Of a stretch of DNA of 64,000 nucleotides, positions 21,196-45,200 are shown piece after piece; the first letter of the stretch is position 1; each line of letters opens with the position of its first letter. The stretch is from Naegleria gruberi (Eukaryota), in assembly GCA_000004985.1 (NCBI GenBank), contig GG738903.1. One strand, given 5' to 3'. A model generated the notes under the pieces. That model was not told the origin of the DNA and made no database searches. It saw only the letters and a program-made list of their open reading frames with translations. A program made the translations under genes and the position numbers.

Positions 21196-23357
21196 ATGAA
21201 GAAGGTTCTTAGTCCATCATCTCTTCAACTCAATTTGAAAATTGCTTCGGGAGCTATTGCTTCATCATCAAAACATGCAACACAAATTGTAAAATATCTT
21301 GCTCAACAACAGCTGGCATCTGTTAATTCTTCCTATCATCAATCTAGTCGAGTTTCAACAAGCAAAAAAAAGGATAACGATGATGATGAATTTAAAAAGA
21401 ACATGAACAACATATTTGGAGCATTGGGAGGCTCGGAACAAGTGAAAGGACATTTGAATGATATATTCAATGCTTTTTTAAAACCTGGAGCAAATATTCA
21501 TACTTCAGGTGCTTCGAATTCTTCATCTTCATCATCTAAAAAGAGTGAACAACAAACAACGGAAAATGATGAAGCAAACAAGCCAAAGAATACCTTCATT
21601 CAAGATGAAGAACGATTAAACGAGAATTTCCACAAGATTGTCTTTGAAGCCTATCACATGCAACGTAAACAATTTGAAAACAAATTGACACCACAAGAAA
21701 TTGTGAATTGTCTTGATAAACATATTGTTGGACAAAAGGATGCAAAGAAGGCTGTCAGTGTAGCCCTTCGTAATAGATATAGAAGAAAGATTTTGATTGA
21801 TTGGGCAAAGAGTGAAAAAACTTTACTTGATCCTTCTGAGATAATTCCAAAGAATATTTTAATGATTGGATCAACAGGTTGTGGTAAAACTGAAATTGCA
21901 AGAAGATTGGCAAAATTAGTTTCTGCTCCATTCTTGAAGGTTTGTTTAATTCAATGTTCTCTATTAATTTATTATTATTATTTTATTATTATTATTATTA
22001 TTGGAATGTTCTTAATGAAAAAATTATATAGGTGGAAGCAACTAAATATACAGAACTTGGATATCATGGAAGAGATGTGGATACTATTGCTAGAGACTTG
22101 GTGGATGTTTCTATCAATGTTTTGAGAAATAATATTACTGATCTTTTCAAACAATTTTTAAATAGACCACCATCATCAACACCATCCGAACAAGAAGAAG
22201 GAACTTTGGAAGAACCAGACTTGTTTGGATCCTATCTTCAACAATTAATAGAGTATAGAATCATTCACTTGATGATTGGAACAAAAAATATAGCAAATTT
22301 GAGAAATGGTACCATTAAGGATTATTTGAACATGTTAAGAAATGGAGAATTGGACGATAGAAAAATTGAAGTGAGCATGCCTGAAAAGAAATCATCATTA
22401 GGATTATCTCAATTCAGTGACGTGTTTGATGCTGTCAAGGGTTCATTTGGATCATCTCTTGATAATTCCAAATTTTCAATGCCAGATGTTGCCAACTTGT
22501 CAGATCATCAAACACCACTTGACTCAATGTTAGGTCAATTAAATCCACAAAAATATAAAAAGGTTGAAATGACAATTAAGGAAGCCAAAGTGAGATTAGT
22601 AGAGTTGGAAATGGATAAATTTTTGAATAGCCCATTATTCATTGAAGAGGCAAGAAAGATTGCTGAAAGTGATGGAATTGTCTTTATTGATGAAATTGAC
22701 AAGATTTGTGGAAGTCCTGAAAAGAAGGCCGTTCAAGGAGATGCCTCAGGAGAGGGAGTGCAAAGGGATTTATTACCACTGTTAGAGGGTTGCACAATTA
22801 ATACTAAATATGGTCCAGTCAAGACGGATCATGTTTTGTTTATTGCTAGTGGTGCTTTCCATCAACAAAAGCCATCTGATTTAATGTCTGAATTCCAAGG
22901 TAGATTGCCAGTAAGAATCATGTTAACTGCACTTAATACGCCTGAAGAGCTCTATCAAGTATTAACAATGCCAGAATTCAACCTTGTGAGACAAAATATT
23001 TCCCTTATGAATAGTGAGGGTATTTCTTTGGTCTTTAGTGACGCAGCTAATAGAGAAATTGCCAATTTCAGTGCCTTGTGTAATGCAGGAAATGATAATC
23101 TTGGTGCAAGAAGATTAATTGGAATTATTGAAAAGGTAATTGATGAAATGTCTTTTATTATTCCAGACTTAGTGAGAATGGAGGATACTGAAAAAGCTGC
23201 ACAAGAATTGAGAAATATTGGATTTAACACTTTTGAAATATCAAGACAAGATAATAGAAATGCTATTACAATCACAATAACAGCCGAAGATGTGCAAAAG
23301 AAACTGGAAAAGAGCTCACAATTTAAAAAGTTGGATGTGAAGAAGTTTATGATTTAA
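21196..23357 (+). CDS. hslU: HslU (ClpY) AAA+ ATPase subunit of the HslVU protease, with a roughly 160-aa N-terminal extension. Two exons: 21196..21939 and 22032..23357.
   Basis: It aligns with E. coli HslU along its whole length: '[21 protein letters not shown]', Walker A '[19 protein letters not shown]', 'APFLKV|[22 protein letters not shown]' across the intron, Walker B 'VFIDEIDKI', and '[12 protein letters not shown]', '[10 protein letters not shown]', 'LQGRLPVRI', 'GARRL'. Confidence 0.88.
21940..22031 (+). other. Spliceosomal intron (92 nt) in hslU
   Basis: GTTTGT...(ATT)n-rich...TATAG. Exon 1 ends in phase 0 after 'PFLK'. Exon 2 begins 'VEATK', restoring the universally conserved HslU segment. 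Confidence 0.85.
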
Positions 23358-23376: not shown

Positions 23377-26300
23377 TTAAAGTTCAAATCTTGCATTTGC
23401 TTTCATTCTTTGTTTGAGTTCGTTCACAATAGCAAATGATTTGTACTCATCTGTGAAAATAAACCTAGAGAAGGTATCACTCAAGTTCATAACAATTTGT
23501 TGATAGAGAGAATCAGCACATCCATTAATCATTCTTTGATAACCAACCCACATTACTTTGTTTTCTGTATTGTTTGCTTCTGCCTTCTTTTGTTCATCAA
23601 CCAATTTTACACTTGATTGACTAAAGTCAAGTTTGATTGGCTGGGCATTCATGGATTGCATTGGAATTGACTTTGTCTTTTTAGTATTCAACTCTCCATA
23701 CAGAATGCTTTCATAAACCTTATCCACAAATGGCTTGTCTTTACCTTGCTCGACAACCATCTTGAATAAGAGTAAGAATGAATTTCTTGAATGTGATGGA
23801 ATATTCACTTCCATAGTTGCTCCTAATTTGATGTAAACCTCGTAGGTGCTGACACAGTACGAGTAGAGATGTTTCAAGAACTCTTCAGAATCGTCCATCT
23901 TATTCTCCAAAGTATCCATAAAGAGCTTGATATCAACATACATGTAAAGATTTTCCAAAGACCATTCCTTTTTACAGAACTCCTCAAATAGAATAATACC
24001 TTCAGAGTCTGACATTACTTGAGAGAGTTCCTCATTTTCTAATTCCACTGCTTCTTCTTTCTTATTGTCATTAGGTTTTTCAGTTGTAATCTTCTTGTAG
24101 AAATTATAAAGTGAAACCAAGGAAACAAATCCACCAAATGCTAAAATATAAAATACAATATAGACAGTTTCAATGGCAAATCTGGCTGAGTCAAAGACAA
24201 GCCCAATTGTGAATTGTTTAGTGTCAGAGCTGGAGAATTTTCCATCAATACTGGCAAGACCTAACGCTTGAGAAACAATGAGGAAGATAAAGAATGCCAC
24301 AAAGAATATCATTTCCAAACGGTAGAACAGTGGAGTATCTCTTCTAACAAACCATTTCCATACTGTGTGTAATACTGTTGATATTTGAATTGTTTCCTTT
24401 CCTTTACCTGATGAAGTATCAGCACTAATTGGTTTAGTTTCTAATTTCTTTTGTCCTTTTCCTTCAGTAGTCGCTCCTTGATTTGTAAGTCTTGCAGAAA
24501 TTGAAGACTCCTTTGAATCGTCATCAAATTTGTAAGTCAAAATCATATCAGCAACGAAAATTAAAGCAACAATCAAGGCAAATGTCAAAATGACAACACA
24601 ATAGGATACAGAAACAATAGTAGTGTAGTCATTAGCACCAATAACTCCAGTATACTTGAGAACAAACCACAAAGTCCAATAGAGAATGTTAGCTACAGCA
24701 AACAAACATAAAATAGCATAATAGATTGGATTTGAGGTCAATCTCTTGAATGTTGTAATCTTCTTTGCATAATTTGCTAAAAGATTACCTTCCTTATTTC
24801 TCATCACATTCATTAAATTGTAAAGATGCTTCATGAATAAGTAACGAACCACTTGTAAGAGGAAGGCGAGAATGGCTGTTAAATTGAGAGTGTTGACAAT
24901 AATTGAAGCTATACCACCAAACCAATTGACTACATTAGTGACATCAGTTTCATAAGCTGCCGATTTCAATGTATTACTCAATAATTCATTAACAAGAATG
25001 GAATTTCTAATAATTGAAATCAAAACACATTCAGTCAACAGGGCAATCATACCCAAGTATGGAGCAACAAGTCTACTCTTAATAGGTTGCTTATTTTTAA
25101 ATATTGTGAGCAATACCAAAACAATAACAGCCACAATTCCATAAATTCCTCCAAAAACTATTTCAGCAATGTAATAACTGGCAACTTGTAATTTGTAGCT
25201 ACTATTAACAGCACTAGTCAAATTGAATTGCAAGAAAGTACCAAATCTTGTGGTATGGTCACACTTACAAACAACATCACCATTAACAAATGAAGAGACG
25301 TAACAACCATTTCCTAACCAAGCATTTTCGGTTTCATTCCAATATCTGCACTCCATTGTGGTATTGGTAATATTCTTATTTGATGTCAAGGTAGAAAGTG
25401 ATGTCTTGTCGAGAGAGAACGTCAAAGCAATAGGATTTTTGAGATTTCTCAATTCAACTTGACTGTCTGACATACTGAGTGTGAATTCCGTTAGAGGTGC
25501 AAGAATATAACTCTTCTTTGAGAAGGAATCAACCTTTGAGTTGATAGAGTAGGCTATGAATGATAAGCCAAAGGATCCAGTTGTTTCATTTGAAATTTGT
25601 TGGAAAATAGAATTCATATCCAAACTAACTTGATTAATACCAGTTGAAAGAGTTTGATTGGTAGTTGTTGGAGTTGACTTATCCAGAGAGAATGCAGAAA
25701 TTGTAATATTGACCATATCAGTTGCAAATGAAAGAGTTGGAACTGATCCAGTTGTAACCAATGTTGGAATTTCACCAATGAGAGCTGTATCAGCTGTACT
25801 TTCTGCAGTTGATTCCACCTTTTCAGAGTTTAGTCCAGTTTCCAATAAATTTGAAACAAGTTTTAGTGTTGAAAATGTGACAGTTGAATCCAAAATCTTT
25901 GTCTTGACAAATGAATACAATGCCTTTTCTTCTAAATATTGAGCTGTAACATTTGAAACGAAATTGGCTAACTTGGTGTTTACCTTGTCGACCATTTCAG
26001 AGCTCATCTTTGAAGGATCTGAAGTAATGGTAAGGAAAGAATCCAATGCACTTTGTGGATTCTTAATATCAAATTGAACATTGTCAATTAATTGATTCAA
26101 AACGGCTTGTGATTCATTGGTTGAAATTGATCGAGTAGAAATGGATGTATCATAAGAGTAAAGAACTGATTGCTCAGAAGAGCTAGCACTACTCAATAAA
26201 TTCAATAATTCCGAAACTGTTCCATTGTAAGGCGAAACTGTGACTGTTGAAGAATATGTCCACTCTTCATTACCATACTTATCGGCAACAAAGAGAATAA

Positions 26301-29300
26301 CAGTGACAGTCTCATCGTTGGTGCTTCTACTCTTCTTTGTTTGAGTCAAATAAGGAAGAATGGAACTGAAAGTGGAATTAGTAGTGTATGAAGTGATTCT
26401 GACAGGTTTTTGTTGTGTAGAATCATAAACACCTAAAGCATACGTGAGTGGTTTGAGAGAATCGGCAGCTGACCATTCCTGAACTGTGAAAACGAAATTT
26501 TCAATAAGTGCCATACCTTGAGTTGGCATTATAGTGACGAGTTTTGTTGTATTCTTTGGAGCTGATGCTGGTGGGATGATTGGATAAGTTGAGGTGATTG
26601 AAAAACTGGAATTACTGTCCTGATTTCTAAATTCCAAAATAATTTCCAAAATTGATTCTTCAGCAGTGTTCTGTGTGAGATTTGTAATTTGCGATTTGAA
26701 ATTGGAAACAGAATAGGAAAGATATGGAGAGCAAGTAAATCCATCAAGAGCAGAGTTTGGAACAATGGTTACATTTCCAGAAATGTCTAACATGTTAAGA
26801 GTTTGATTGAATCTAACGACAAGTGAGTATTCAACTTTCTTTGCTGCACAACCACCATTGTTACATCCCAAGAATCTTACCAAAGCACTTTGATTCAAAG
26901 AAACTGTCGGTACAACAATATCCAAACTAGTTGGTAAGGTATTGGTTGTGTAAGCTTCCTTCACACCAACAACAGATACAGAGTATGATTCTGGCACTTG
27001 AATAATGGTAATATTAAAACTAAATGTGTTTGATTGTCTGTAGAAGAAAACACCATCCTCTGAGGTTACAGCCATAGCCGACAATTCAAGATTGAAAGTT
27101 CCTGTTGGTAATACATAAACATTGAATAGGGCAATTGATTGAGTAATATTTGAAAGATAATCACTTCCATTATTTCCTTGACAATTAGTACATGTCCAAT
27201 TGTAAATCACATTTTCCAACAAGTATGGTTGTGGAAGAATCTCACCTAGAACAGCATGAAGTGACAAACTAGAAATATTGTTGTAGACACTATAACTCTC
27301 TACCGTGTAACCTCCAATTTTAAGTGAGACTGTAATTGGAGATTGTGTGATATTACAATTCTTACCAAACCATGGATAACTGCATTCACAAGTATTAGGA
27401 CTATTACAGATACCATTTTGTGAGCAAACATCCAAAGAAGTTGCATTCACACCAAAGCAAATTGGTGTTTGACAATTTTCTCCAGTGAAACCATTTGTGC
27501 ATTCGCAATTATTTGGCGATTTGCATTGACCATGTCCAGAACAAACATTCAATGTATCATTAAAGTACAAAGAATAGCATTGGTACAGAGTACATTCCTC
27601 TCCAAAGTAACCTTGTACTTGACAAGAGCAAGTATTTTCAGAATTACATTGACCTTTTCCATTACAAACTTGTGGATCGGTTGAATTCTTTCCGAAACAC
27701 GTTGAGAATTGACAATTATTACCAGAGTATGTTGAAGTACAATTACAGAAATCGACACCAATGCAGCTTCCTCTTTGGTTACAAACATTTGAAGAGTTGG
27801 CAAGAATATTTTCACACTTGAAGATTTCACAATTTGAACCGCCATATCCATAGCCACATGAACACAAATCAGTGTCAATACATTGACCAAAACCTGAACA
27901 AACTGATGGCATAGTTGAATTGATTCCGTAACAAATTGGGTATTGGCACTTGTCTCCAGTGTATCCTGTAACACAAGAACACTTATCAGGAGAAATACAT
28001 GAACCCTTTCCACTACAAATAAACTTGGAATCTTGTGAAGTATTATTTCCAAAGCAAGAAACATATTGACAGTTATTTCCACTATATCCTAAATTACATG
28101 AACAATTATTTGGTAAAATACATTTACCAAATCCAGAGCACACAGTATTATTGAGATAGTTCAATCCATAACAATTGTAATCTGTGCAATTCTTTCCATA
28201 GTAATTATAATCTGTACAGTAACAAACGTCTGGAGAAGTACAAATACCTTTTGCATTACATTGTGTTGGATCATCAAAGGTTCTATTATAACAAATTGGT
28301 TTGTTACATTGTCCACCAGACGAAAAACCAGATAGACATTGGCATGTATCTGGTGCAACGCAGCTACCATTATTGGAACAGACATTTGGATCTAGAGCCG
28401 AGAGTGAGTAACAAACTGGAATGTCACATCTGGAACCTGTGTATTGAGAGGTACAATTACATAAATTGGCACCAGTACAATTTCCCTGAGAGCTGCAATA
28501 TGCAACACCATCACATGAGTAGGCAGAACATTCTGCATTGCCTTTCCATCCAGTGTTGCACTGACAAGTATTATTGGAAATACACAAGCCATTTCCATGA
28601 CAGTTGTCAGAGGCATCACATGTGAAAGTATTACAATTTGAACCTGTCCAGCCAGATCTACATTGGCATGTGTTATTTCCAATACATTGACCATTTTGAG
28701 AACAAGAATTAACTCCGTCACAACTAATAACTGAACAATTGGAACTTCCTTTCCATCCACTTTGACATTGGCAAGTATTGTTTGAAATACATAAACCATG
28801 ATCGTAACAATTAAGCACACCATCGCATGTGAAAATGTCACATTTTGGTCCAGACCATCCAGATCTACATTGACATGTGTTATTTCCAATACATACTCCA
28901 TTTTGAGAACAGCCACTAACACCATCACATGAGAATTGGGAACATTCTGCATTGCCTTTCCAGCCACTATAACATTGGCAAGTGTTGTTGGAAATACACA
29001 AGCCATTACTGTTACAATTTGAAGAGGCATCACAAGTGAAAACATTGCAACTTGCTCCTGTCCAACCAGACCTACATTCGCATGTGTTATTTCCAATGCA
29101 TTGACCATTTTGAGAGCATGAATTAACACCATCACAAGTAATTGCCGAACAATTCGAGTTACCTTTCCATCCACTAACACAGTTGCATGTATTAGCGCCT
29201 GTACACGTACCATGTCCTGAGCAGAAATCTCTATCCTTACAAGTAAAAGTATTACAATTAGCTTCTGTCCATCCACTGTTACAATTACAAGTATTATTTG

Positions 29301-31509
29301 AAATACAAGTACCGTGTCCATTACAAGCTCCTAATGCATCACAACTGATTGCTGAACAATTTGCATTACCTTTCCATCCACTATCACAAGTGCATGTATT
29401 TGCGCCTGTACACGTACCATGTCCAGAACAGTAATTTCTTTGATCACAAGTGAAAACTGAACAATCGACAGCACCTCTCCAACCTGTTTTACAACTGCAA
29501 GTGTTATTCGAAACACAAGTACCCTTACTGGCACCTCCACAATTACTTAAGGCATCACAACTAATTGCTGAGCAATTTGCATTTCCTTTCCATCCACTTT
29601 CACAAGTGCATGTATTAGCACCTGTACACGTACCATGTCCTGAACAATAATTAGTTCCGTCACAAGTGAATTCAGAGCAGTTACTAGCTCCTCTCCATCC
29701 TGAATTACAGGTGCAGGTATTTGGACCGCTGCATATTCCGTGTCCATAACAACCTCCAACTAGCTCACAACTCACTGAATTACAACTTGTGTCTCCCTTC
29801 CAACCATCATTACATGAACAAGTATTTGCACCAACACATTCACCATGCCCAGAACAATAATTGCGCGAATCACACGAGAATATTGAGCAATTACTAGCTC
29901 CTCTCCATCCTGAATTACAGGTGCAGGTATTTGGGCTGCTGCATATTCCATGTCCATAACAACCTCCAACTAGCTCACAACTCACTGAATTACAACTTGT
30001 ATCTCCCTTCCAACCAGCATAACAAGAACAATTATTGGGTCCAATACAGTCACCATGAGATGAACAATAATTGCGCGAATCACACGAGAATATTGAGCAA
30101 TTGGCAGCTCCTCTCCAGCCAGTAACACAAGAGCATGTATTAGCAGAAGTACATGTTCCATGGTTTGAACAAACATTTGCTGTATCAGTTGCATTGTAAG
30201 AGTAACAAATTGGAATGTTGCACGAAATTCCAGTCCAATCAGTATTACATGAACAATATGTTTCTGAAGCACAAGAACCATGTCTTCTCCAACATTGTAG
30301 AGATGGCGAACACAATTCATAGGAACAATCAAGTCCTGTATAGTTGGTGGCAGTACAGTTACAACTGTTCGGAGCAATGCAATCTCCCTTATTGTAACAA
30401 ACATTTGGTGATGGATAATAGTAACCGTAGCAAATATTGTATTGGCATTCAGAACCAGTATAACCAGTATTGCAGGAACAAGTATTCGGTGAAGTACAGG
30501 TACCTCTCACAGATCCAGAGCAAGCATTTGCTGTATTATTGGAAGGTATTCCATAGCAAATTGGATATTGACATTTTGGCCCAGTGTATGTCGAATTACA
30601 TTGACATGTGTCAGTATCAATACAGTTACCATGCCCTGAACAAATAACTGATGAGATATTTTTAAAGGTACTCACTCCAAAACATATTGGAATTTCACAA
30701 TTATTTCCTGTGTAACCTTGTGGACATTGACATTGATTAGTAAAAACACAAGTTCCTCTTCCTGAACAAACAGTAGTATCATTTTGTAAAATTCCATTAC
30801 AAATAGTAACATTACAATCATTTCCAAACCAATTGGCTTTACAATTACAAGTATCCAAATCAGTACAATTACCATGTGAATTACAGACATTTGAGGCATT
30901 CTGAACTATTCCAAAGCATGAAGGAGTGCCACATTGAGTACCACTCCATCCATCATCACATTTACACACATTGGTATCGATACAATCTCCATTTCCTTTA
31001 CAAACAGAATTTGTTTCATTCTGTAATATTCCAAAACAGGAGGTAACATTACAATCAATTCCATACCAATTTGATGAGCATGAACAAGTATCAGTACCAG
31101 AACAAGTTCCATGCCCATTACATACAGCACTTGTTTCATTCTGTAATATTCCAAAACAGGAGGTGATTTGACATTGAGTGCCATACCAATCTGGATCACA
31201 TTCACAATTATCTTGTTCGGTACAGTTTCCTCTTCCGTTACAAACTTGGGTTGTGTTTGACAATTTTCCAAAGCAATAGATGAGTGTATTGTTGTTGGAT
31301 TCTTGTGCTTGTGTGAAAAGGAAACTCTCTTTAGTTTCGAATATTTGTTGTTGGTCTTGATGGAATAAAAACATCATGATGAAACAAGTTGACAAAATTG
31401 ATGCATATAAAATTATATTCATCAGAAAGGAATGATTACCCGGAGAAGATTGTTTCCTCCTTGTCATTCCAATACGAGAAAACCCATTATTATTATTGCT
31501 TCTCATCAT
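23377..31509 (-). CDS. Giant adhesion-GPCR-like receptor, 2710 aa. From N to C: signal/anchor, roughly 60 tenascin-type EGF-like repeats, an S/T-rich stalk, a GPS-like motif, 7TM, and a C-terminal RGS domain.
   Basis: Continuous 8.1 kb ORF. Repeats of the form C-x-C-xxG(W/Y)xGxxC. GPS-like 'CRYWNETENAWLGNGCYVSSFVNGDVVCKCDHTTRFGTFL'. Seven hydrophobic helices follow. The C-terminal RGS fold is 'ILFEEFCKKEWSLENLYMYVDIKLF...YEVYIKLGATMEVNIPS...'. Confidence 0.8.
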   Translation of the reverse strand: MMRSNNNNGFSRIGMTRRKQSSPGNHSFLMNIILYASILSTCFIMMFLFHQDQQQIFETKESFLFTQAQESNNNTLIYCFGKLSNTTQVCNGRGNCTEQDNCECDPDWYGTQCQITSCFGILQNETSAVCNGHGTCSGTDTCSCSSNWYGIDCNVTSCFGILQNETNSVCKGNGDCIDTNVCKCDDGWSGTQCGTPSCFGIVQNASNVCNSHGNCTDLDTCNCKANWFGNDCNVTICNGILQNDTTVCSGRGTCVFTNQCQCPQGYTGNNCEIPICFGVSTFKNISSVICSGHGNCIDTDTCQCNSTYTGPKCQYPICYGIPSNNTANACSGSVRGTCTSPNTCSCNTGYTGSECQYNICYGYYYPSPNVCYNKGDCIAPNSCNCTATNYTGLDCSYELCSPSLQCWRRHGSCASETYCSCNTDWTGISCNIPICYSYNATDTANVCSNHGTCTSANTCSCVTGWRGAANCSIFSCDSRNYCSSHGDCIGPNNCSCYAGWKGDTSCNSVSCELVGGCYGHGICSSPNTCTCNSGWRGASNCSIFSCDSRNYCSGHGECVGANTCSCNDGWKGDTSCNSVSCELVGGCYGHGICSGPNTCTCNSGWRGASNCSEFTCDGTNYCSGHGTCTGANTCTCESGWKGNANCSAISCDALSNCGGASKGTCVSNNTCSCKTGWRGAVDCSVFTCDQRNYCSGHGTCTGANTCTCDSGWKGNANCSAISCDALGACNGHGTCISNNTCNCNSGWTEANCNTFTCKDRDFCSGHGTCTGANTCNCVSGWKGNSNCSAITCDGVNSCSQNGQCIGNNTCECRSGWTGASCNVFTCDASSNCNSNGLCISNNTCQCYSGWKGNAECSQFSCDGVSGCSQNGVCIGNNTCQCRSGWSGPKCDIFTCDGVLNCYDHGLCISNNTCQCQSGWKGSSNCSVISCDGVNSCSQNGQCIGNNTCQCRSGWTGSNCNTFTCDASDNCHGNGLCISNNTCQCNTGWKGNAECSAYSCDGVAYCSSQGNCTGANLCNCTSQYTGSRCDIPVCYSLSALDPNVCSNNGSCVAPDTCQCLSGFSSGGQCNKPICYNRTFDDPTQCNAKGICTSPDVCYCTDYNYYGKNCTDYNCYGLNYLNNTVCSGFGKCILPNNCSCNLGYSGNNCQYVSCFGNNTSQDSKFICSGKGSCISPDKCSCVTGYTGDKCQYPICYGINSTMPSVCSGFGQCIDTDLCSCGYGYGGSNCEIFKCENILANSSNVCNQRGSCIGVDFCNCTSTYSGNNCQFSTCFGKNSTDPQVCNGKGQCNSENTCSCQVQGYFGEECTLYQCYSLYFNDTLNVCSGHGQCKSPNNCECTNGFTGENCQTPICFGVNATSLDVCSQNGICNSPNTCECSYPWFGKNCNITQSPITVSLKIGGYTVESYSVYNNISSLSLHAVLGEILPQPYLLENVIYNWTCTNCQGNNGSDYLSNITQSIALFNVYVLPTGTFNLELSAMAVTSEDGVFFYRQSNTFSFNITIIQVPESYSVSVVGVKEAYTTNTLPTSLDIVVPTVSLNQSALVRFLGCNNGGCAAKKVEYSLVVRFNQTLNMLDISGNVTIVPNSALDGFTCSPYLSYSVSNFKSQITNLTQNTAEESILEIILEFRNQDSNSSFSITSTYPIIPPASAPKNTTKLVTIMPTQGMALIENFVFTVQEWSAADSLKPLTYALGVYDSTQQKPVRITSYTTNSTFSSILPYLTQTKKSRSTNDETVTVILFVADKYGNEEWTYSSTVTVSPYNGTVSELLNLLSSASSSEQSVLYSYDTSISTRSISTNESQAVLNQLIDNVQFDIKNPQSALDSFLTITSDPSKMSSEMVDKVNTKLANFVSNVTAQYLEEKALYSFVKTKILDSTVTFSTLKLVSNLLETGLNSEKVESTAESTADTALIGEIPTLVTTGSVPTLSFATDMVNITISAFSLDKSTPTTTNQTLSTGINQVSLDMNSIFQQISNETTGSFGLSFIAYSINSKVDSFSKKSYILAPLTEFTLSMSDSQVELRNLKNPIALTFSLDKTSLSTLTSNKNITNTTMECRYWNETENAWLGNGCYVSSFVNGDVVCKCDHTTRFGTFLQFNLTSAVNSSYKLQVASYYIAEIVFGGIYGIVAVIVLVLLTIFKNKQPIKSRLVAPYLGMIALLTECVLISIIRNSILVNELLSNTLKSAAYETDVTNVVNWFGGIASIIVNTLNLTAILAFLLQVVRYLFMKHLYNLMNVMRNKEGNLLANYAKKITTFKRLTSNPIYYAILCLFAVANILYWTLWFVLKYTGVIGANDYTTIVSVSYCVVILTFALIVALIFVADMILTYKFDDDSKESSISARLTNQGATTEGKGQKKLETKPISADTSSGKGKETIQISTVLHTVWKWFVRRDTPLFYRLEMIFFVAFFIFLIVSQALGLASIDGKFSSSDTKQFTIGLVFDSARFAIETVYIVFYILAFGGFVSLVSLYNFYKKITTEKPNDNKKEEAVELENEELSQVMSDSEGIILFEEFCKKEWSLENLYMYVDIKLFMDTLENKMDDSEEFLKHLYSYCVSTYEVYIKLGATMEVNIPSHSRNSFLLLFKMVVEQGKDKPFVDKVYESILYGELNTKKTKSIPMQSMNAQPIKLDFSQSSVKLVDEQKKAEANNTENKVMWVGYQRMINGCADSLYQQIVMNLSDTFSRFIFTDEYKSFAIVNELKQRMKANARFEL

Positions 31510-35262: not shown

Positions 35263-36840
35263 ATGAAATTCAAGAGGAATAAAACGTTAGACGAAACCGT
35301 TGTGTCTCCTTCCTCGTCAACACCAACCAATACATCATCTTCTTCTACATCCTCTTCAAAGAAAAGACCTAGCAGTGTGAATAGTGACTTTGATGTTTCG
35401 AATTATGCCATTGTTTTTGAAGAAATGATGGATTCGAAAGAAACTCGTGATTTATTCTATGAATATTTGCAGCTTAATCGTTCGGTGGAATCTCTCATGT
35501 TCATGAATCAAGTTGAAGAATATCGTGCGGAATATAACAAGAAATTCGAGAATGTTATTTGTGGTGAAAATGTTGATAAAAAGCAAGTTCATACCAAGAT
35601 TGTGGAAATCTATTCGAAAGCAAGGGGTATTCTTGATCAGTTTGTGTTTCAAGGAGGTCAATTCGAGTTGAATTTGGCCTTTGCTAACAAGGATAAGATT
35701 CGAGAACTTTGGGAAACAAAAGTTTGTGAAAGTTTTGAAAAATTGGACAAGGAAAGATTGGAGGTTGAGAAACTTTCGAAAATCATTTCCATGTTGGAAA
35801 CTGATACATTGTTTGGACTTGCAATGTTTAGTGTGAATTTGGATTTGAGGTTTGATCAATTTCCAAGATTTTCCAGATCTGAAATGTTAATGAAATTCCT
35901 CGAGTCGAAAGGAGAACGATTCACCAGAGCCATTGCAACAGATATTTCTAAAGGTTTCCAATTAGATATTCGATTCAAACCTCATCATTTACAAGATTCA
36001 ACCATTGATGACAAGTTTATTTACTTTGGTTTCACCCTCGCTGAGGACACACCTGATTGGGAATTGACCTATTCAGATAAGAAGAATACCTGTGAATTGT
36101 ACCAATCCAAAACTTCCTATGTATTCGATACTGAAACATTGAAAGGTTTGAGATTGAGTAAGGTTGTCACTCGTGTACCATATCCAATTGAAGAAGTCTG
36201 GGCATGCTTCTGGAATATAGATCTCCATAAGGTGATAGATCCTATGGGAGGTGCAGAAACTTTCAAATTAATGGATTACATTTCACCTGTATCTGAAGCT
36301 GAAGGAAAACCAAATTATTCGAATCAACAAGTTTCATGTTGTACGAAATTCCCAATTCCATTCATGAAGAAGAGAGATTTACCAATCACCATGACAGCAA
36401 TCAGAGATCCAGAACTTAACATGATCATGGTTGCAGGACACACTTGTTCACTAATCGAAACTAGAGAAGATTGCATCCCAGCTCAACTCATGTTTTACTA
36501 CATGTTCTATAAGGTCAGTGATAATGAAACTCGTTTCATTCACACTGTGTATACTGATTTGAAGTTGCCTCTAAATCCTTCCTTAATGCTCAAAGTAATC
36601 ATGTTGAAGAGAGCTAAGGATTATAAGAAAGGTTTCGAGCAACAAATTACTCGCCTTCGTAAGGAAAAAAGTACAAAGGATGGTCTGATGGATACTTCCC
36701 AATTTGTGGATGCTATGAAATATAATTTGGCCATTGAGGAGAATACTAAATTATATCCTAATAGATCGTGGTATAATGAATGGCTTCAGTTGAGAGAGAA
36801 ACGACTCAGCTTGAACATGTCAGATGCAAAATCAAATTAA
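35263..36840 (+). CDS. RGS-domain protein (N-terminal RGS, C-terminal domain unknown), 525 aa
   Basis: ATG at 35263. The RGS signature is 'FEEMMDSKETRDLFYEYLQLNRSVESLMFMNQVEEYR...IYSKARGILDQFVFQGGQFELNL' (compare ...F..FL..E.S.ENL.FW...E.YK....EVNLD). The S/T-rich N-terminus has no signal peptide. Confidence 0.6.
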   Translation: MKFKRNKTLDETVVSPSSSTPTNTSSSSTSSSKKRPSSVNSDFDVSNYAIVFEEMMDSKETRDLFYEYLQLNRSVESLMFMNQVEEYRAEYNKKFENVICGENVDKKQVHTKIVEIYSKARGILDQFVFQGGQFELNLAFANKDKIRELWETKVCESFEKLDKERLEVEKLSKIISMLETDTLFGLAMFSVNLDLRFDQFPRFSRSEMLMKFLESKGERFTRAIATDISKGFQLDIRFKPHHLQDSTIDDKFIYFGFTLAEDTPDWELTYSDKKNTCELYQSKTSYVFDTETLKGLRLSKVVTRVPYPIEEVWACFWNIDLHKVIDPMGGAETFKLMDYISPVSEAEGKPNYSNQQVSCCTKFPIPFMKKRDLPITMTAIRDPELNMIMVAGHTCSLIETREDCIPAQLMFYYMFYKVSDNETRFIHTVYTDLKLPLNPSLMLKVIMLKRAKDYKKGFEQQITRLRKEKSTKDGLMDTSQFVDAMKYNLAIEENTKLYPNRSWYNEWLQLREKRLSLNMSDAKSN

Positions 36841-39210: not shown

Positions 39211-42200
39211 ATGTCTCTTGACTACTGTATGGTCTCTAACAGAGTAAAACTCTGTAAGGTTACTGTTTGTATGCTTGTGACCCTAGTTATCTTGTCCATT
39301 TTGGCTTCTAATACTAATGCATTTGAATGTACAGGTACAGATTCTTGTAATGGTAGAGGTTTTTGTTCAACCACAGGTGATTCTTGTCAATGTTTGACAA
39401 CTCTCAACTATGATTTGAATAATAATGCCAATACTATGGTTGCTAACTCTTCCCTTTCATTCTATACTCTAGGTTCAAGTGATGGAGAAGAACCATCCTA
39501 TACTTTCATTTCTGGTAATACTACCTATGTTTCCAAAATTACTTTTGATGGTACTAATGTAAATGTTATTGTAAAGAATCAAAGTATTTTGACTCAAGAT
39601 GTTGGTAGTGGATATCAATACCTCACTCTCAAAATTGATGGTAGTTTAGGAATGTGTCAAAGTGATAAGATTGATTGTGTTGCTCTCACTAGTAACGGTG
39701 GTGTTAATTCTGCTGCTTGTAATGGAACTGGTCCTTTCTATTTCTTCTTTAGAAAGGATGGTTTAATCTCTGTTTTAGATAGTACTGGTGCAGAATGTTG
39801 GAACAGTAATGTTTTCGATTCATCAGTTAAATATCAAGATTTTGCTGGTACTAGTTGTCAAGATTCATTGTATTATTGTAATGGTATTGTAAATACTGAT
39901 GCTAATGTTTGTAGTGGTAAGGGAAAGTGTGGTTCTACTGGTTGTACTTGTAACAATACAACTCAATGGACTGGATCTGATTGCTCAACCCCTATTTGTT
40001 ATGGTTTACCTTCTACTGATGCTAACGTTTGTAAAGGAAGAGGTTCATGTGCTGCTCCAGATTCTTGTTCATGCACTATTGGTCAAGCTCCATATTGTAA
40101 TGTAACTTGTGGAAATGTTTCTGAAAGTTCTCCTAGTGTCTGTAATGGATTTGGTCAATGTATTTCCCAAGATACTTGTCAATGTACAAATCCAAATTAT
40201 TCTGGTAAGAATTGTGATGTTTATAGTTGGGTATGTCAAGATGTCAATTCTTGTAACTCTAAAGGTTTCTGTGCCAATAGTACTTTGTGTGATTGTTCCT
40301 ATGATTACATGAATATTGTTAATGGTGGTGCTACTCTCTATCGTGATGTTGTTACTAATGCTTTTGCTAATTCTCCAAATTTCAATTGTTCCCTTCGTCA
40401 AGTTGCTACTGTTGTAAATAATCAAACTGTATATCCATTGGTAGGAATTTGTGGTGGTGTCACTATTTGGACTTATCCAATTACTACTTTTACTAGTTTA
40501 CTTGAATATCTCACAATTACAGCAAATGGTCACGTTCTTGTTGAAGGTAACACTCAACTCTTAGATTTCAATTCTAATATGGCAATTAATACAACCACTC
40601 CTGTTTACAGTATGGGAAATGATGGTGTATTCAGAATTTACTCATCCACTGGTACAAATACCTATTCTCTTGGTACTTCAAATGGTCTTACAGGTTGGAC
40701 TCTTGCTTATGGTCAACAATGTCAATCTTCACACAGTTTTTGTAATGGTCTCCTCGATACTGATCCAAATGTTTGTAGTAGACGTGGTTCATGTGTTATG
40801 GGAAGTTATTGTGATTGTAAGCATGGTTTTGGTGGTACTAATTGTGAAAAGGAAGCCACTTGTGATGGAATTCCTCAATCATCCAACTTAACTTGTTCAG
40901 GACATGGTAATTGCACTTTCCAGGGATGTACTTGTACTGCTCCATACTATGGAAGTAATTGTTCTCAAAGATATTATACCTGTTATGGTATTGCTTCAAC
41001 AAATCCATCTACTTGTAGCGCTAATGGTAAATGTGTTGAAGACAATACTTGCGTTTGTAATAATGGTTTCAGTGGATCAATGTGTCAAAGTCTTTCATCT
41101 AACAATGGAACTAACAATGGTACAATCAACAATAATGGTACAATTAATAACAATGGTACTGTTAATAATAATGGAACTATTAACAATAATGGTACAACCA
41201 ATAATAATGGTACTGCTAACAATGGTACTGTTAATAACAATGGAACAATTAACAACAATAATGGTACATCTAATAATGGTACTTCCAATAATAATGGAAC
41301 CGTTGTTGATCCATGTAAGAATATCACTTGTCAATATGGTATTTGCTCTGCAGGCAAGTGTATCTGTAGTTATAGTACCGATTATTTCTATTATGGACCT
41401 ACTTGTTCAAAATACAGTGCAGTTATGTGTCAAAGCTTAATGCAAGCTTCCACAGCTCCATTCTGTGCCTCAGTTGGTGTAACTCCTAATATTATGAATT
41501 TTGTTTCTGAACTTGGTTATAATCTTCTTGCTAAATATAATGGTGCGCTTAATGAAAGCGTTGTCAGTGCTCAAGCTGTTTCAGAACTAGATAATGCTGC
41601 CTTGTTAATGTCTCAAGCATTCGTCAAAGCTTGTACCAATGATGCTTGCCGTCTTGCCTATAAGAGATATGCTTGCTATTCACAATTCCCAATTTGTTCT
41701 GCAAATACTTACATGCCAGTTTGTAATGGTGCTTGTACTACTGCCCTTAGTCCATATCCACTTCCAAATGTTAATTTGACAAGTTTGTGTGGATCTCTTC
41801 CATCTAAATATTGTACCAATGATATTAACTATGTAGATGCCAAGTGTGTTGGTGTAACTTGTTCTGGTCGTGGATCTTGTTCAAATGGAACTTGTAATTG
41901 TGCAAGTGGCTATACTGGTGCTAATTGTGAACAAGTTATCATTCCATACTCTCTCACTCCTGCCTGTGTAAATGTAATGTCCTCATCTTCAACTCCTTTC
42001 TGTGCCTCTGCTGGAGTTGTTCTCCCATTGTATAATGTTAATTTAATGAATGGTGCTAAGAGTGAAAGCCAAGCTGCTAGTATGCTTGCTGCTAGTTTAG
42101 CTCAATTAGATGCCCAAGCTAATGCTACCTTCTTAACTGGATCTTCTTATAATCCTAATTGTGCAACTGCTGATTGCTTGATTCATATTAAGAGATATGC

Positions 42201-45200
42201 ATGTTATACTACATTCAAGTCTTGTATTAATACTACTTCAACTGCTGTTCCATGGTGTAAATCTGCATGTCAAATCATGTATACTCAAGCTAGTACTATT
42301 GCTAATTTTAGTTATCCAATGAATGCTACATGTGACTCATTCCCTGACTCCAACTGTAACTACGGTGTCTACCTTCCTTCCACTACCACTTGTTTTGGTA
42401 AATCAATTAAGGATGCTACTGTATGTTCAGGAAAAGGATCATGTATTTCTCAAGATACTTGTAATTGTGCAAATGGTTATTCTGGAAGCAATTGTGAAAA
42501 GGCAGTTTGTTTCTCAAAGATTAGTTCTGATTCATCAGTTTGTTCAGGAAGAGGTTCATGTGTTGCTCCAAATAGTTGTACATGTAAAACAGGATACACA
42601 GGAGAAAAATGTGAACTTCCAACATGTAATGGTAAGAGTGATGTTTTGGGTGGTTGTTCATTCCGTGGATCTTGTAATACTACTGATTCTTGTATCTGTA
42701 ATGGTAATTTTGATTCATCAACATTCTGTTCTAAATGTAAGAGTGGTTATGTTGGATCAAATTGTGATGTTCCAGTATGTTTCTTAATTTCTGCCACTGA
42801 TAGTACTGTTTGTGGAGGTCAAGGTTCTTGCATTAGTCCAAACACTTGTAAATGTAAATCAGGATATTCAGGCACTGCTTGTCAAACCTTCTCTTGTTAT
42901 GGTATTTCAAAGACTGACAGTAATGTCTGTGGTGGAAGTACAAGAGGTTCATGTATTGGTCCAGACAATTGTAAATGTGTTACCAATTGGAACAATAAGA
43001 ATAATACTTGTACTAGTTGCAGTCCTGCATACACTGGTTCTTCATGTACTACTCCAGTTTGTAGTGCAACTGATACATGTAATTCTCATGGTACTTGTGA
43101 TTCTAATTTCAAGTGTGTCTGTACTGGTAATTTCATTGGTGATTATTGTTCATCATGTGCCACTGGATTTGTTGGTGCAAATTGTGATATTTCTTGCTCA
43201 GCTGCCAAGACATGTAATTCACACGGTTCATGTACCAATACTGGTTCTTGTACTTGTAATGGTAATTTTGATCCTTCTTTCAATTGTGCATCTGCTAAAT
43301 GTCTTAATGGTTTCTTGGGTGATGGATGTAATTACAAGGTTGATACATCTTCTTTCAAGTTCAATGCTAATGGTGATAGAATTACTGCTACCATTTATAA
43401 TGCTGTCAAGACTCAAGTTGCCTGTTCTCAAATTATTTCATCTCTCTCCAAGCTTGGTACTGGTCCAATTTGTAACATGGATGGTAAATCATCTATTGAA
43501 ATTATTTTAGGTGTTGGTGCTACCATTGTTACTGGTGATTCATTAACTCTTTATTCATTGATTGGTGACTCTAGCTCAACTGTTAATGCTGTTGTTTCTG
43601 CTGGTGAATTTGTTGCTTTAGCACCAACTTCTGCATTGACTTCTGACAAGTCTCTTGTTTCCCAATGTGATGTTTTGAATTTGAATGCATTTGATTCTGT
43701 TTCTCTTGATCGTCGTCCTCTTACATTCTCTTGGACTTGTACTGCTGGTCCATCATCAGATGATCAAACCAAATTGAATTCTTTAATTTCCTCTACTACA
43801 TTGAGTGGTATCNNNNNNNNNNNNNNNNNNNNNNNNNNNNNNNNNNNNNNNNNNNNNNNNNNATTGCTCAAGCAGCTCCAACTCTTTCAATTAAGGAAGG
43901 TACTTCTGTTAAATTCCTCATTGGAACTACAAGTCTCATTACACCAGTAATTTCATTCCCAACTTGTTATACTGGTACAGGTGCTACAACTTATACATTT
44001 ACACTTGATGGATCTGTTTCAAAGGTTTCATCCTTATCAGTTTCTACCAAGAATAACTTGTTGGTCCTTGGTTCTAGTTTTACCAATATTAATCAAGAAG
44101 GTGATTATTACTTTATTGTAACTGCATCTGCTGATAGTGCTCAAGCAGTTAGTACAACTGTTAAAGTTAGTGCTGTTGCTCAACCTATTTCAGTTGCATT
44201 CAGTGTTCCAGATATGACTCAATCTAAGGATGACCCAGTTGCCTTCTCTATTTCTGTTACTGATCCAAGTAATACTCAAGATACATTGACTCTCTCAACA
44301 ACATGTATTGATTCAACTGGTACTTCTTGTTCTAATCCAGGTTCTGCTTCATCATTCAGTTCTTCATTCGCAGCTGGTACTTATATCTTTACTACCACTG
44401 CTACTAAGGGTTCAAGAACTTCAAGTGCCAAATTGACAATTACAGTTCTCGATACTTCAAAGAGTTTAATTGTCAGAGTTTCAATTACTTCCAATGTTGA
44501 TTTGACAACTGTTGATCCAACAAAGGACTTGTATTTGACCTATAATACTTTGGATTCCTTGTCTGCTCCAACATTCTCTTGGACCTCTGCTACTGGTGAT
44601 GTTTCTTCAAGTTCTCTTCTCATCATTCCAAGCTCTAATCTTGTTCCTGGTTCTTCCTATGTTGTTTCTTTATCAGTTGTTGATGGTGCTAAATCCGGTA
44701 CTGCATCTGTCACAATTACAGTCAACTCTCCTCCAACAGTTGGTGTCTTTGAAGTTTATCCAACTAGTGGTGTTGCTTTGAGTGATTCATTCAGTCTCAA
44801 GTGTGGTAATGGTTGGTCTGATCCACAAACTCCATTATCATTCCAATTCTTCTTCTATGATTCTGTATCTATGAAGTGGAATTCACTCACTGAAAAGTCT
44901 CAACAACAAAGTGCCAACATTCAACTTCCATCACCAAGTTCAGGTTCAACATTGACTATTAAGGCTGTTGTTTATGATGCTTTGGGAGCTTCTTCTGAAT
45001 CTAGAACAAATATTACCATTACTCAACCAAGTAATGCCGACGTTGCAAGTACTTTAACTTCAATGGCAAAGGGTACTAATACTGTTACCTTGTCTGGTGT
45101 TAGTGCTGCAATGTTTGTTATTGGTGCTGTTAGTAATCCAACTGATGCTGAAAAGGCAGCCATTCAACAAGCTTCTACTGCACTTGCCAATTCATTCTTA

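What the first reader, a model, noticed from the sequence alone, without database searches (positions are those of the whole stretch)
23377..31509. Self-contained adhesion-GPCR-like receptor with roughly 60 EGF repeats, a GPS-like motif, 7TM and an intramolecular RGS (GAP) domain
A single intronless 2710-codon ORF joins four parts: a very large tenascin-type EGF ectodomain, the juxtamembrane motif CxxW...W..GC...C.C.H.T.F, a 7TM bundle and a cytoplasmic RGS domain. This puts an adhesion-GPCR ectodomain and GPS on the same chain as a G-alpha GAP, a GPCR-RGS fusion of the plant AtRGS1 type. Such fusions are known from plants and some fungi and protists, but adding a GPS/EGF adhesion module to one is unusual. 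The GPS-like motif reads 'CDH-T-T' where the canonical autoproteolysis site is H-L|T/S. It may therefore be cleavage-incompetent.
Basis: partly seen in the sequence, partly recalled or inferred. Interest (0 to 1): 0.7.

Follow-up and report, generated by a model that had tools for sequence, protein, structure and literature searches.

The report
Naegleria EGF–GAIN 7TM-RGS receptor gene
This is a real, already annotated Naegleria gruberi gene for a giant surface protein that joins an adhesion-receptor-style outer part to a seven-helix membrane domain and a built-in G-protein "off switch"; proteins built this way were described in the sister species N. fowleri in 2022, so it is an interesting family member, not a discovery.

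Summary
The 2710-codon ORF at 23377-31509 (minus strand) is real. It is Naegleria gruberi NAEGRDRAFT_73289 (EFC39035.1, UniProt D2VW82, "predicted protein"), identical from M46 onward.

Domain order:
- signal segment
- 35 EGF repeats (not about 60)
- seven TM helices with a generic GPCR fold but no class-B (7tm_2) signal
- a C-terminal RGS box with the G-alpha contact residues conserved

At least 76 cluster representatives carry GPS/GAIN + 7TM + RGS on one chain. All the named ones are Heterolobosea (Naegleria, Willaertia).

Bosch et al. (JBC 2022) already described 28 N. fowleri "7TM RGS" proteins, some with GPS motifs and EGF repeats, and showed GAP activity for three RGS domains. The window protein aligns end to end (34% identity) with their Nf 7TM RGS1.

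The "HTT" triad fits the canonical H-X-S/T cleavage motif and is the family norm (44 of 45 motifs). It is therefore no evidence of cleavage incompetence.

Verdict: the architecture is confirmed and the novelty claim is not. This is a new member of a known kind.

The parts
23377..31509 (-). Whole ORF, 2710 codons plus stop. It is N. gruberi NAEGRDRAFT_73289 / EFC39035.1 / D2VW82, whose annotated start is M46.
   Evidence: It is 100% identical over 2665 aa to P0017, which is named.
31360..31419 (-). Hydrophobic signal peptide or signal anchor, aa 31-50. It lies upstream of the annotated start codon.
   Evidence: Kyte-Doolittle peak 2.06. Paralogs start with classical signal peptides.
27355..31275 (-). 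Array of 35 teneurin/tenascin-type EGF repeats, aa 79-1385.
   Evidence: Pfam EGF_TEN 441 bits, EGF_2 316 bits. 210 Cys and 35 signatures. DNA tandem repeats of 105/207-216/414 nt at 28504-30117.
26239..27243 (-). Diverged REJ-like module, aa ~1423-1757.
   Evidence: An iterated family profile hits the Pfam-REJ region of the neighbouring ORF 44058-46151 at 4.9e-8 before that ORF is included. Pfam REJ passes its threshold on the matching region of relative P0025 and on a stretch that contains the matching region in P0077. Pfam REJ does not hit the window protein itself.
25222..26217 (-). GAIN domain, aa ~1765-2096: a helical subdomain A followed by a beta-sandwich subdomain B.
25225..25350 (-). 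GPS motif, aa 2054-2095, with 4 Cys, 2 Trp, the GC pair, H-T-T and a Stachel-like strand TTRFGTFLQF.
   Evidence: Pfam GPS 29.5 bits. A family profile matches the GPS of ADGRG3, F1, E5, D1 and L3 in the PDB.
25249..25257 (-). H2085-T2086-T2087 triad. The predicted scissile bond is T2086|T2087.
   Evidence: Invariant in 4 close homologs. HTT occurs in 44 of 45 family motifs. The H-X-S/T rule is from PMC13062082.
24109..25161 (-). Seven-helix transmembrane domain, aa 2117-2467. Family motifs: KQPxKSR (ICL1), QxxRY (end of TM3), D (end of TM5), DPLxFRxE (before TM6), FGG (TM7).
24313..24540 (-). Long third cytoplasmic loop, aa 2324-2399. It is low-complexity and predicted disordered.
23380..24048 (-). 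C-terminal RGS box, aa 2488-2710. It is split by a poorly conserved insert between the Pfam-matched N-terminal part (aa 2495-2577) and the last helices; aa ~2612-2652 of the insert are modelled as disordered.
   Evidence: Pfam RGS 27.5 bits. Family profile versus RGS10 8e-7. Foldseek probability 1.00 to RGS4, 1, 8 and 16. SxEN (aa 2517-2520), EVN (aa 2567-2569) and D-x2-S-R-F (aa 2678-2683) are conserved.

Best explanation
The ORF encodes a heterolobosean "7TM RGS" receptor, a membrane-anchored GTPase-activating protein for G-alpha subunits. Its outer part is adhesion-type. It is a full-length homolog of Nf 7TM RGS1 of N. fowleri.

Topology (inferred from hydropathy, the positive-inside pattern and the model):
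- A signal segment comes first.
- About 2050 extracellular residues follow: 35 EGF repeats, a REJ-like module and a GAIN domain.
- Then come seven TM helices.
- A cytoplasmic RGS box forms the extreme C-terminus.

Mechanism, with shown and inferred steps marked:
1. The RGS box binds the transition state of Naegleria G-alpha subunits and speeds GTP hydrolysis. The contact residues are conserved here. The activity itself was shown only for N. fowleri paralogs, so it is inferred for this protein.
2. Some Naegleria G-alpha subunits exchange nucleotide on their own. A receptor-GAP held at the membrane therefore keeps them off. This is inferred from the N. fowleri and AtRGS1 work.
3. Contact or pulling on the EGF/REJ ectodomain is passed through the GAIN domain to the 7TM bundle. 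The GPS has the H-X-T triad, the aromatic residue and the Gly-Cys pair needed for self-cleavage, so a tethered peptide (TTRFGTFLQF...) could be exposed. That would change GAP access, or remove the receptor from the surface, and release the G protein. This step is inference only.
For: Identity:
- Neighbouring ORFs are exact N. gruberi proteins. The ORF is 100% identical to D2VW82.

Domains:
- Pfam EGF, GPS and RGS all pass their thresholds.
- All 32 relatives scanned match RGS and 28 match GPS.
- The AlphaFold model with 32 sequences has mean pLDDT 79.
- The RGS fold has Foldseek probability 1.00.
- The RGS contact motifs SxEN, EVN and DxxSRF are invariant or nearly invariant in the family.

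Family:
- The profile search gave 88 hits below 1e-30.

Literature:
- N. fowleri has 28 7TM RGS proteins, some with GPS, EGF and lectin domains. The RGS domains of Nf 7TM RGS2-4 are selective GAPs for Nf G-alpha 2, 3, 5 and 7 (PMC9283941).
- Both primers for Nf 7TM RGS1 map exactly onto P0019/P0164. That protein aligns with the window protein at 34% identity over 2577 columns.
Against: - No biochemical or expression data exist for this protein.
- Its RGS score is only just above the Pfam cut-off when the whole protein is scanned (24.2 against 23.9 bits).
- The one direct full-length homolog tested, Nf 7TM RGS1, gave uninterpretable GAP assays and was dropped from the study.
- Nothing here shows that the ectodomain regulates the RGS box or that the GPS is cleaved. 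An H-X-S/T motif is necessary but not sufficient: BAI2 has HLS and is not cleaved.
- The link between the 7TM and AtRGS1 was not tested.
Confidence: 0.78

Rival explanations
1. It is a true adhesion GPCR (class B2) that activates G proteins as an exchange factor after tethered-agonist exposure. The fused RGS box is a built-in timer that ends the signal.
For: It has a complete GAIN domain, and its GPS resembles the adhesion-GPCR consensus: T+1, F+3 and a hydrophobic residue at +6/+7 are conserved. The best Foldseek hit is CD97 GAIN+7TM. The 7TM has a GPCR fold with a conserved Arg-Tyr at the cytoplasmic end of TM3. N. fowleri also has slow-exchanging G-alpha subunits, which need an exchange factor, yet few candidate GPCRs were found there.
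Confidence: 0.12
2. The GAIN/GPS is a purely structural, non-cleaving spacer. The receptor signals, if at all, without a tethered agonist.
For: The -1 residue is Thr, not the usual Leu. Some receptors with a canonical triad are not cleaved, for example BAI2 and ADGRG5. Whether the flaps around the GPS allow cleavage cannot be judged here.
Against: HTT fits H-X-S/T. Across the family, His, Thr+1, the aromatic residue in C-x-[YF]-W and the Gly of Gly-Cys are kept in 44-45 of 45 motifs. That is the pattern reported for cleavage-competent receptors. Mapping the aromatic residue to position S10.49 is my inference.
Confidence: 0.3
3. It belongs to the polycystin-1 / sea-urchin REJ receptor family, which has REJ + GAIN/GPS next to the membrane.
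For: A REJ-like module lies directly before a GAIN/GPS domain. That pairing is typical of polycystin-1-like proteins (my knowledge).
Against: It has seven TM helices, not eleven. Pfam finds no PLAT domain and no polycystin channel domain. The C-terminus is an RGS box. Pfam REJ does not reach significance on this protein itself.
Confidence: 0.03
4. The long ORF is an assembly or annotation artefact that joins two genes.
For: The window is a draft scaffold with N gaps elsewhere. The adjacent EGF/REJ gene is broken by such a gap.
Against: There are no N runs or stops inside 23377-31509. The same collinear architecture is found in N. fowleri, N. lovaniensis, Willaertia and metagenome contigs.
Confidence: 0.02

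Closest known systems
Naegleria fowleri 7TM RGS proteins, especially Nf 7TM RGS1 (NF0014590 = FDP41_005437), Bosch et al., J Biol Chem 2022 (PMC9283941)
   Same: Same domain order: EGF array, REJ-like module, GAIN/GPS with HTT, 7TM, C-terminal RGS. The two align end to end at 34% identity, and the RGS box is 35% identical. The paper already notes GPS motifs and EGF repeats "reminiscent of the adhesion GPCRs".
   Different: Different species. The EGF signature count is 35 here and 28 there. The paper did not report the REJ module, the full GAIN fold, the HTT rule or the class of the 7TM. GAP activity was shown for paralogs RGS2-4, not for RGS1.
Arabidopsis AtRGS1 (plant 7TM-RGS)
   Same: Seven TM helices followed by a cytoplasmic RGS box. 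The proposed role is a receptor-GAP for self-activating G-alpha (and my knowledge).
   Different: AtRGS1 has a very short extracellular N-terminus and no EGF, REJ or GAIN domain (my knowledge). Homology between the two 7TM domains was not tested here.
Metazoan adhesion GPCRs (for example ADGRG6, ADGRL3, ADGRE5/CD97, BAI3)
   Different: The 7TM is not class B. It has a C-terminal RGS box, and the -1 residue is Thr, not Leu.
Polycystin-1 / suREJ / PKDREJ
   Same: A REJ module directly followed by GAIN/GPS next to the membrane.
   Different: 7 TM helices, not 11. No PLAT or channel-like domain. RGS at the C-terminus.
GPR158-RGS7-Gbeta5 complex (class C orphan receptor that holds an RGS protein at the membrane)
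   Same: A GPCR-fold 7TM whose role is to position an RGS GAP, not to act as an exchange factor (my knowledge). GPR158 appears among the 7TM fold matches (ranks 29 and 42).
   Different: In GPR158 the RGS protein is a separate chain. There is no GAIN domain and no sequence relationship.

Membership tests
7TM RGS proteins (Naegleria family; AtRGS1-type architecture) | Seven transmembrane helices with the N-terminus outside | tested here: met
7TM RGS proteins (Naegleria family; AtRGS1-type architecture) | RGS box C-terminal to the 7TM on the same chain | tested here: met
   Pfam RGS 24.2-27.5 bits against a cut-off of 23.9. Family profile versus RGS10 8e-7. Foldseek probability 1.00 to RGS4, 1, 8 and 16.
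7TM RGS proteins (Naegleria family; AtRGS1-type architecture) | G-alpha contact residues of the RGS box retained (equivalents of the RGS4 Glu-Asn, Asn128 and Asp163/Arg167 positions) | tested here: met
   SLEN at aa 2517-2520, EVN at aa 2567-2569 and DTFSRF at aa 2678-2683 align with RGS10. They are invariant or nearly invariant in 32 family members. The RGS4 numbering is from my knowledge.
7TM RGS proteins (Naegleria family; AtRGS1-type architecture) | Sequence homology of the 7TM-RGS cassette to described N. fowleri members | tested here: met
   Collinear with Nf 7TM RGS1 (P0019/P0164), 34% identity over 2577 columns.
7TM RGS proteins (Naegleria family; AtRGS1-type architecture) | GAP activity toward a G-alpha subunit | not testable with these tools
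   Shown only for Nf 7TM RGS2-4.
7TM RGS proteins (Naegleria family; AtRGS1-type architecture) | 7TM homologous to that of plant AtRGS1 | not tested
   No AtRGS1 sequence or profile was available. The AFDB fold library was offline.
Adhesion GPCR (class B2) | GAIN domain fold next to the membrane | tested here: met
Adhesion GPCR (class B2) | GPS motif with an H-X-S/T triad | tested here: met
   Pfam GPS 29.5 bits. H2085-T-T2087. Motif definition in PMC13062082.
Adhesion GPCR (class B2) | Secretin-like 7TM (Pfam 7tm_2) | tested here: not met
Adhesion GPCR (class B2) | Autoproteolysis at the GPS and tethered-agonist activation | not testable with these tools
   The sequence determinants are present, but cleavage needs an experiment.
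Polycystin-1 / REJ receptor family | REJ domain | tested here: inconclusive
   No direct Pfam hit on the window protein. A transitive profile link to a Pfam-REJ ORF at 4.9e-8, and Pfam REJ hits on relatives P0025 and P0077 that cover the matching region.
Polycystin-1 / REJ receptor family | Eleven TM helices with a PLAT domain and a polycystin channel-like C-terminal part | tested here: not met
   Seven TM helices. No PLAT or PKD_channel Pfam hits.

The most novel reading that the evidence does not exclude
The GAIN domain and its tethered peptide gate a transmembrane GAP instead of an exchange factor, a kind of "reverse adhesion GPCR". Pulling off the EGF/REJ fragment would expose TTRFGTFLQF, which docks into a non-class-B 7TM bundle and switches the fused RGS box. 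If so, GAIN/Stachel signalling is an ancient module. It would work with unrelated 7TM domains and would have been present in Discoba independently of animal class B receptors. The 2022 paper raises the resemblance to adhesion GPCRs in general terms, but no one has tested the mechanism.
Probability: 0.25. Interest if true: 0.65.

Novelty: new member of a known kind. Interest (0 to 1): 0.3.

Why it matters
The gene shows, in a free-living relative of the brain-eating amoeba N. fowleri, how adhesion-type modules (EGF, REJ, GAIN) are wired to a G-protein off-switch and not to an on-switch.

This analysis adds four things to the published description:
- The ectodomain contains a REJ-like module.
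- The GPS is part of a complete, confidently modelled GAIN fold.
- The family uses an H-T-T cleavage triad almost without exception.
- The 7TM is a GPCR fold with no class B signal, and it also occurs without GAIN. This suggests that the 7TM-RGS cassette is the older unit.

These points make a clear experiment possible: does GAIN cleavage regulate a GAP? They do not change the picture already drawn for N. fowleri.

Tried and rejected
- The word-index homolog search on aa 1900-2710 returned only 3 hits and missed the 100% identical N. gruberi entry. The exhaustive profile search later found that entry. A second word-index search with a 7TM-only alignment returned only 2 family members. It therefore said nothing about AtRGS1 or other 7TM families.
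- The first AlphaFold run, with 4 sequences, was too weak to use (mean pLDDT 51). It was replaced by a 32-sequence run.
- The AFDB Foldseek library, which could have shown AtRGS1-like matches, was not available.
- A direct Pfam REJ scan of the window protein gave no hit. BLASTP against the neighbouring REJ ORF gave only a 43-residue match at E 0.004. The REJ assignment rests on the iterated profile and on relatives.
- I considered a conserved C-terminal hydrophobic-x-hydrophobic (PDZ-ligand-like) tail. Only 31 of 112 family members have it, so I dropped the idea.
- I checked whether the choanoflagellate GPCR survey describes GAIN-RGS fusions. It does not.
- Primer mapping identifies Nf 7TM RGS1 securely. 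For RGS2, 3 and 4 only the C-terminal primer matches (P0030, P0024, P0041), so those assignments remain tentative.
Full report
**Observation**

The window holds one uninterrupted ORF on the minus strand at 23377..31509, 2710 codons. The DNA is about 34% G+C, so a stop-free run of this length cannot be chance. The strand was not stated.

**Organism and identity**

Four neighbouring ORFs are exact matches to Naegleria gruberi proteins on a 304,373-bp scaffold (NAEGRDRAFT_73281, 73291, 81458, 73295). An exhaustive profile search found a 2665-aa entry that is 100% identical to the ORF from Met46 to the end. That entry is NAEGRDRAFT_73289, also EFC39035.1, XP_002671779.1 and UniProt D2VW82, named "predicted protein". 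The gene is therefore already annotated as a single exon but is uncharacterised.

The annotated start removes the only N-terminal hydrophobic segment (aa 31-50). Paralogs begin with normal signal peptides. The true start is therefore more likely M1, M15 or M30.

**Anatomy**

1. EGF array. Residues 79-1385 hold 210 cysteines in regular six-cysteine units and 35 C-x-C...G...C signatures. Pfam gives EGF_TEN 441 bits and EGF_2 316 bits. There are 35 EGF repeats, not about 60. Part of the array is a DNA-level tandem repeat with periods of one, two or four EGF units and 56-90% matches.

2. REJ-like module. Residues ~1423-1757 have no direct Pfam hit. A profile iterated from this segment within the family hits the REJ region of the neighbouring ORF 44058-46151 at 4.9e-8 before that ORF is included. 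Pfam REJ scores 3e-47 on that ORF. Pfam REJ also passes its threshold on relatives P0025 (28.4 bits, the matching region) and P0077 (109 bits, a stretch that contains the matching region). I read this segment as a diverged REJ module.

3. GAIN domain. Residues ~1765-2096 form a GAIN domain. An AlphaFold model built on 32 family sequences has mean pLDDT 79. It shows a helical subdomain followed by a beta sandwich whose last strand is the GPS strand.
   - Foldseek gives E about 2e-8 to the same set, including CD97 GAIN+7TM over 721 columns.
   - The GPS motif itself (aa 2054-2095) scores 29.5 bits against a 22.5 cut-off.

4. Seven TM helices. These lie at aa 2117-2467, with a 76-residue disordered third cytoplasmic loop.

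5. RGS box. It spans aa 2488-2710 and runs to the last residue. It carries an insert before its final helices, about 40 residues of which are modelled as disordered.

**The GPS site**

The triad is H2085-T2086-T2087. A 2026 structural study defines the canonical site as H-X-S/T. His acts as the base, Ser/Thr is the nucleophile, and the -1 residue is variable (PMC13062082). HTT fits this rule.

The study also names two further determinants. One is an aromatic residue (Phe, or Tyr in ADGRE3) that stacks on the His. The other is the Gly of a Gly-Cys pair. The window protein has Y2056 in C-R-Y-W and G2068-C2069. Mapping Y2056 to position S10.49 is my inference from motif spacing.

Among 45 GPS motifs in family members that also have the 7TM and RGS:
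- 44 read HTT and one reads HAT;
- 44 have Tyr or Phe at the aromatic position;
- all 45 have the Gly.

HLT occurs only in distant hits without RGS. Such strict conservation of the catalytic His and Thr argues for function, not decay. A canonical motif is still not sufficient for cleavage, as BAI2 shows. Cleavage here remains untested.

**The 7TM domain**

- No Pfam 7TM family matches the window segment at E<=10, and none matches any of the 32 relatives at E<=1.
- A profile of 11 diverse family 7TM regions finds no solved GPCR at E<=10.
- The best matches are spread over several classes: class A (PAF receptor, CB2, GPR34, P2Y), class C (GPR156, GPR158), class B1 (GIPR, PTH2R), Frizzled and taste receptors. 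There is no preference for adhesion receptors.
- Family-conserved motifs are KQPxKSR in loop 1, QxxRY at the end of TM3, an Asp at the end of TM5, DPLxFRxE before TM6 and FGG in TM7.
- The same 7TM, in collinear alignment, occurs in 36 shorter representatives that have RGS but no detected GPS or GAIN domain.

The conserved unit is the 7TM-RGS cassette. I infer that GAIN and the adhesion modules were added to it, or lost from it.

**The RGS box**

All 32 relatives scanned match Pfam RGS, the best at 4e-12. The family profile hits RGS10, 5, 3, 16 and 4 in the PDB, down to 8e-7. The alignment to RGS10 shows three motifs:
- S-x-E-N at aa 2517-2520;
- E-V-N at aa 2567-2569;
- D-x-x-S-R-F at aa 2678-2683.

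These positions are invariant or nearly invariant in the family. From my knowledge of the RGS4-Gi-alpha1 complex, they correspond to the residues that contact the G-alpha switch regions.

**Family and literature**

The profile search gave 1080 hits below 1e-3 and 88 below 1e-30. Local domain profiles classify 76 proteins as GPS/GAIN + 7TM + RGS. Every hit that carries a name is from Heterolobosea: N. gruberi paralogs, N. fowleri, N. lovaniensis and Willaertia magna. Ectodomains vary among members and include EGF, REJ, NHL, RCC1 and PKD modules.

Bosch et al. (J Biol Chem 2022, PMC9283941) reported the following:
- N. fowleri has 28 7TM RGS proteins.
- The RGS domains of Nf 7TM RGS2-4 are selective GAPs for several Nf G-alpha subunits, including self-activating ones.

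Their two primers for Nf 7TM RGS1 translate to NKDMSI and NVVYLC*. Both match P0019/P0164 (FDP41_005437) exactly, 180 residues apart, as their table states. That protein aligns with the window protein at 34% identity over 2577 columns, with 35% identity in the RGS box. An earlier survey had already noted that many bikonts have 7TM-RGS architectures (PMC3971589).

**How it most likely works**

Shown by sequence and model:
- a type-I-like topology with a very large extracellular region, a GPCR-fold bundle and a cytoplasmic RGS box with intact contact residues.

Inferred from N. fowleri and AtRGS1:
- the protein is a membrane-anchored GAP that holds self-activating G-alpha subunits in the GDP state.

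Inferred by analogy with adhesion GPCRs, and untested:
- contact or force on the EGF/REJ part is passed through GAIN, possibly by cleavage and exposure of TTRFGTFLQF, to the 7TM;
- that changes GAP access or receptor residence at the surface.

The main rival is that the 7TM is a real exchange factor and the RGS box is a built-in terminator. The data here cannot exclude this, but no class B signal supports it.

**Comparison and membership**

- It is a member of the Naegleria 7TM RGS family. The architecture, the homology and the RGS residues were all tested and met.
- It works like AtRGS1 in outline, but homology of the two 7TM domains was not tested.
- It shares the GAIN/GPS module with adhesion GPCRs but fails the 7tm_2 criterion, so I do not file it as an adhesion GPCR.
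- It shares a REJ-GAIN cassette with polycystin-1-type proteins but fails on TM number and on the PLAT and channel parts.

**Verdict**

This is a new, uncharacterised member of a published kind. Interest is 0.3. The most novel reading still open is a GAIN-gated transmembrane GAP, with probability about 0.25.

Noticed in passing
window 39211-43950 (+) and 44058-46151 (+), N gap at 43813-43862: The first ORF (1579 aa) has a signal peptide and teneurin-type EGF repeats. It is followed by a 697-aa ORF with a strong Pfam REJ domain (3e-47) and a single C-terminal TM helix. They are probably one EGF-REJ single-pass gene split by the assembly gap. That would be a relative of the receptor's ectodomain without the 7TM-RGS part.
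   Followed up: partly
window 52048-54099 (+): NAEGRDRAFT_73295 / D2VW88, 683 aa. It has a signal peptide, an ectodomain of about 290 aa, six hydropathy peaks after the signal peptide (aa 292-499) and a C-terminal RGS box (27.4 bits), but no GPS. It is a second, simpler multi-TM RGS gene in the same window. A paralog in the same 90%-identity cluster (D2VW55) lies on the same scaffold.
   Followed up: partly
window 35263-36840 (+): NAEGRDRAFT_73291 / D2VW84, 525 aa, with no TM helix and an N-terminal RGS domain (30.4 bits). The window therefore holds three RGS-domain genes within 31 kb.
   Followed up: no
window 3335-4912 (-): NAEGRDRAFT_73281 / D2VW74. UniRef names it [quoted passage not shown]. 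It lies about 18 kb from the 35-EGF receptor and could modify such repeats.
   Followed up: no
window 31375-31509 (-), codons 1-45 of the ORF: The public gene model starts at M46. That removes the hydrophobic signal segment (aa 31-50). The ORF offers in-frame M1, M15 and M30, and paralogs have normal signal peptides. The annotated start is therefore probably too far downstream.
   Followed up: partly
window 28504-30117 (-): Inside the EGF array the DNA forms tandem repeats with periods of 105, 207-216 and 414 nt, that is one, two and four EGF units, at 56-90% matches. This points to recent in-gene duplication. The array also produces several spurious overlapping ORFs on both strands.
   Followed up: partly
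window 21196-23357 (+): Two overlapping ORFs with AAA-ATPase hits look like one gene with an intron or a frameshift. They end 19 nt from the receptor's stop codon, so the two genes converge almost tail to tail.
   Followed up: no
L001 6147-14227 (Logan SRR29240419 contig): The 45%-identical homolog P0002 was called from an internal position ("MNCNISL...", which aligns with the end of the last EGF repeat). An EGF-coding ORF and broken small ORFs lie upstream. The metagenome gene is probably also a long EGF-REJ-GAIN-7TM-RGS gene that a prokaryotic gene caller cut up.
   Followed up: no
method note: The word-index protein search missed the 100% identical N. gruberi entry and nearly all of the family. 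The exhaustive HMMER search found them. A plausible cause is that low-complexity and hydrophobic words filled the candidate list.
   Followed up: no
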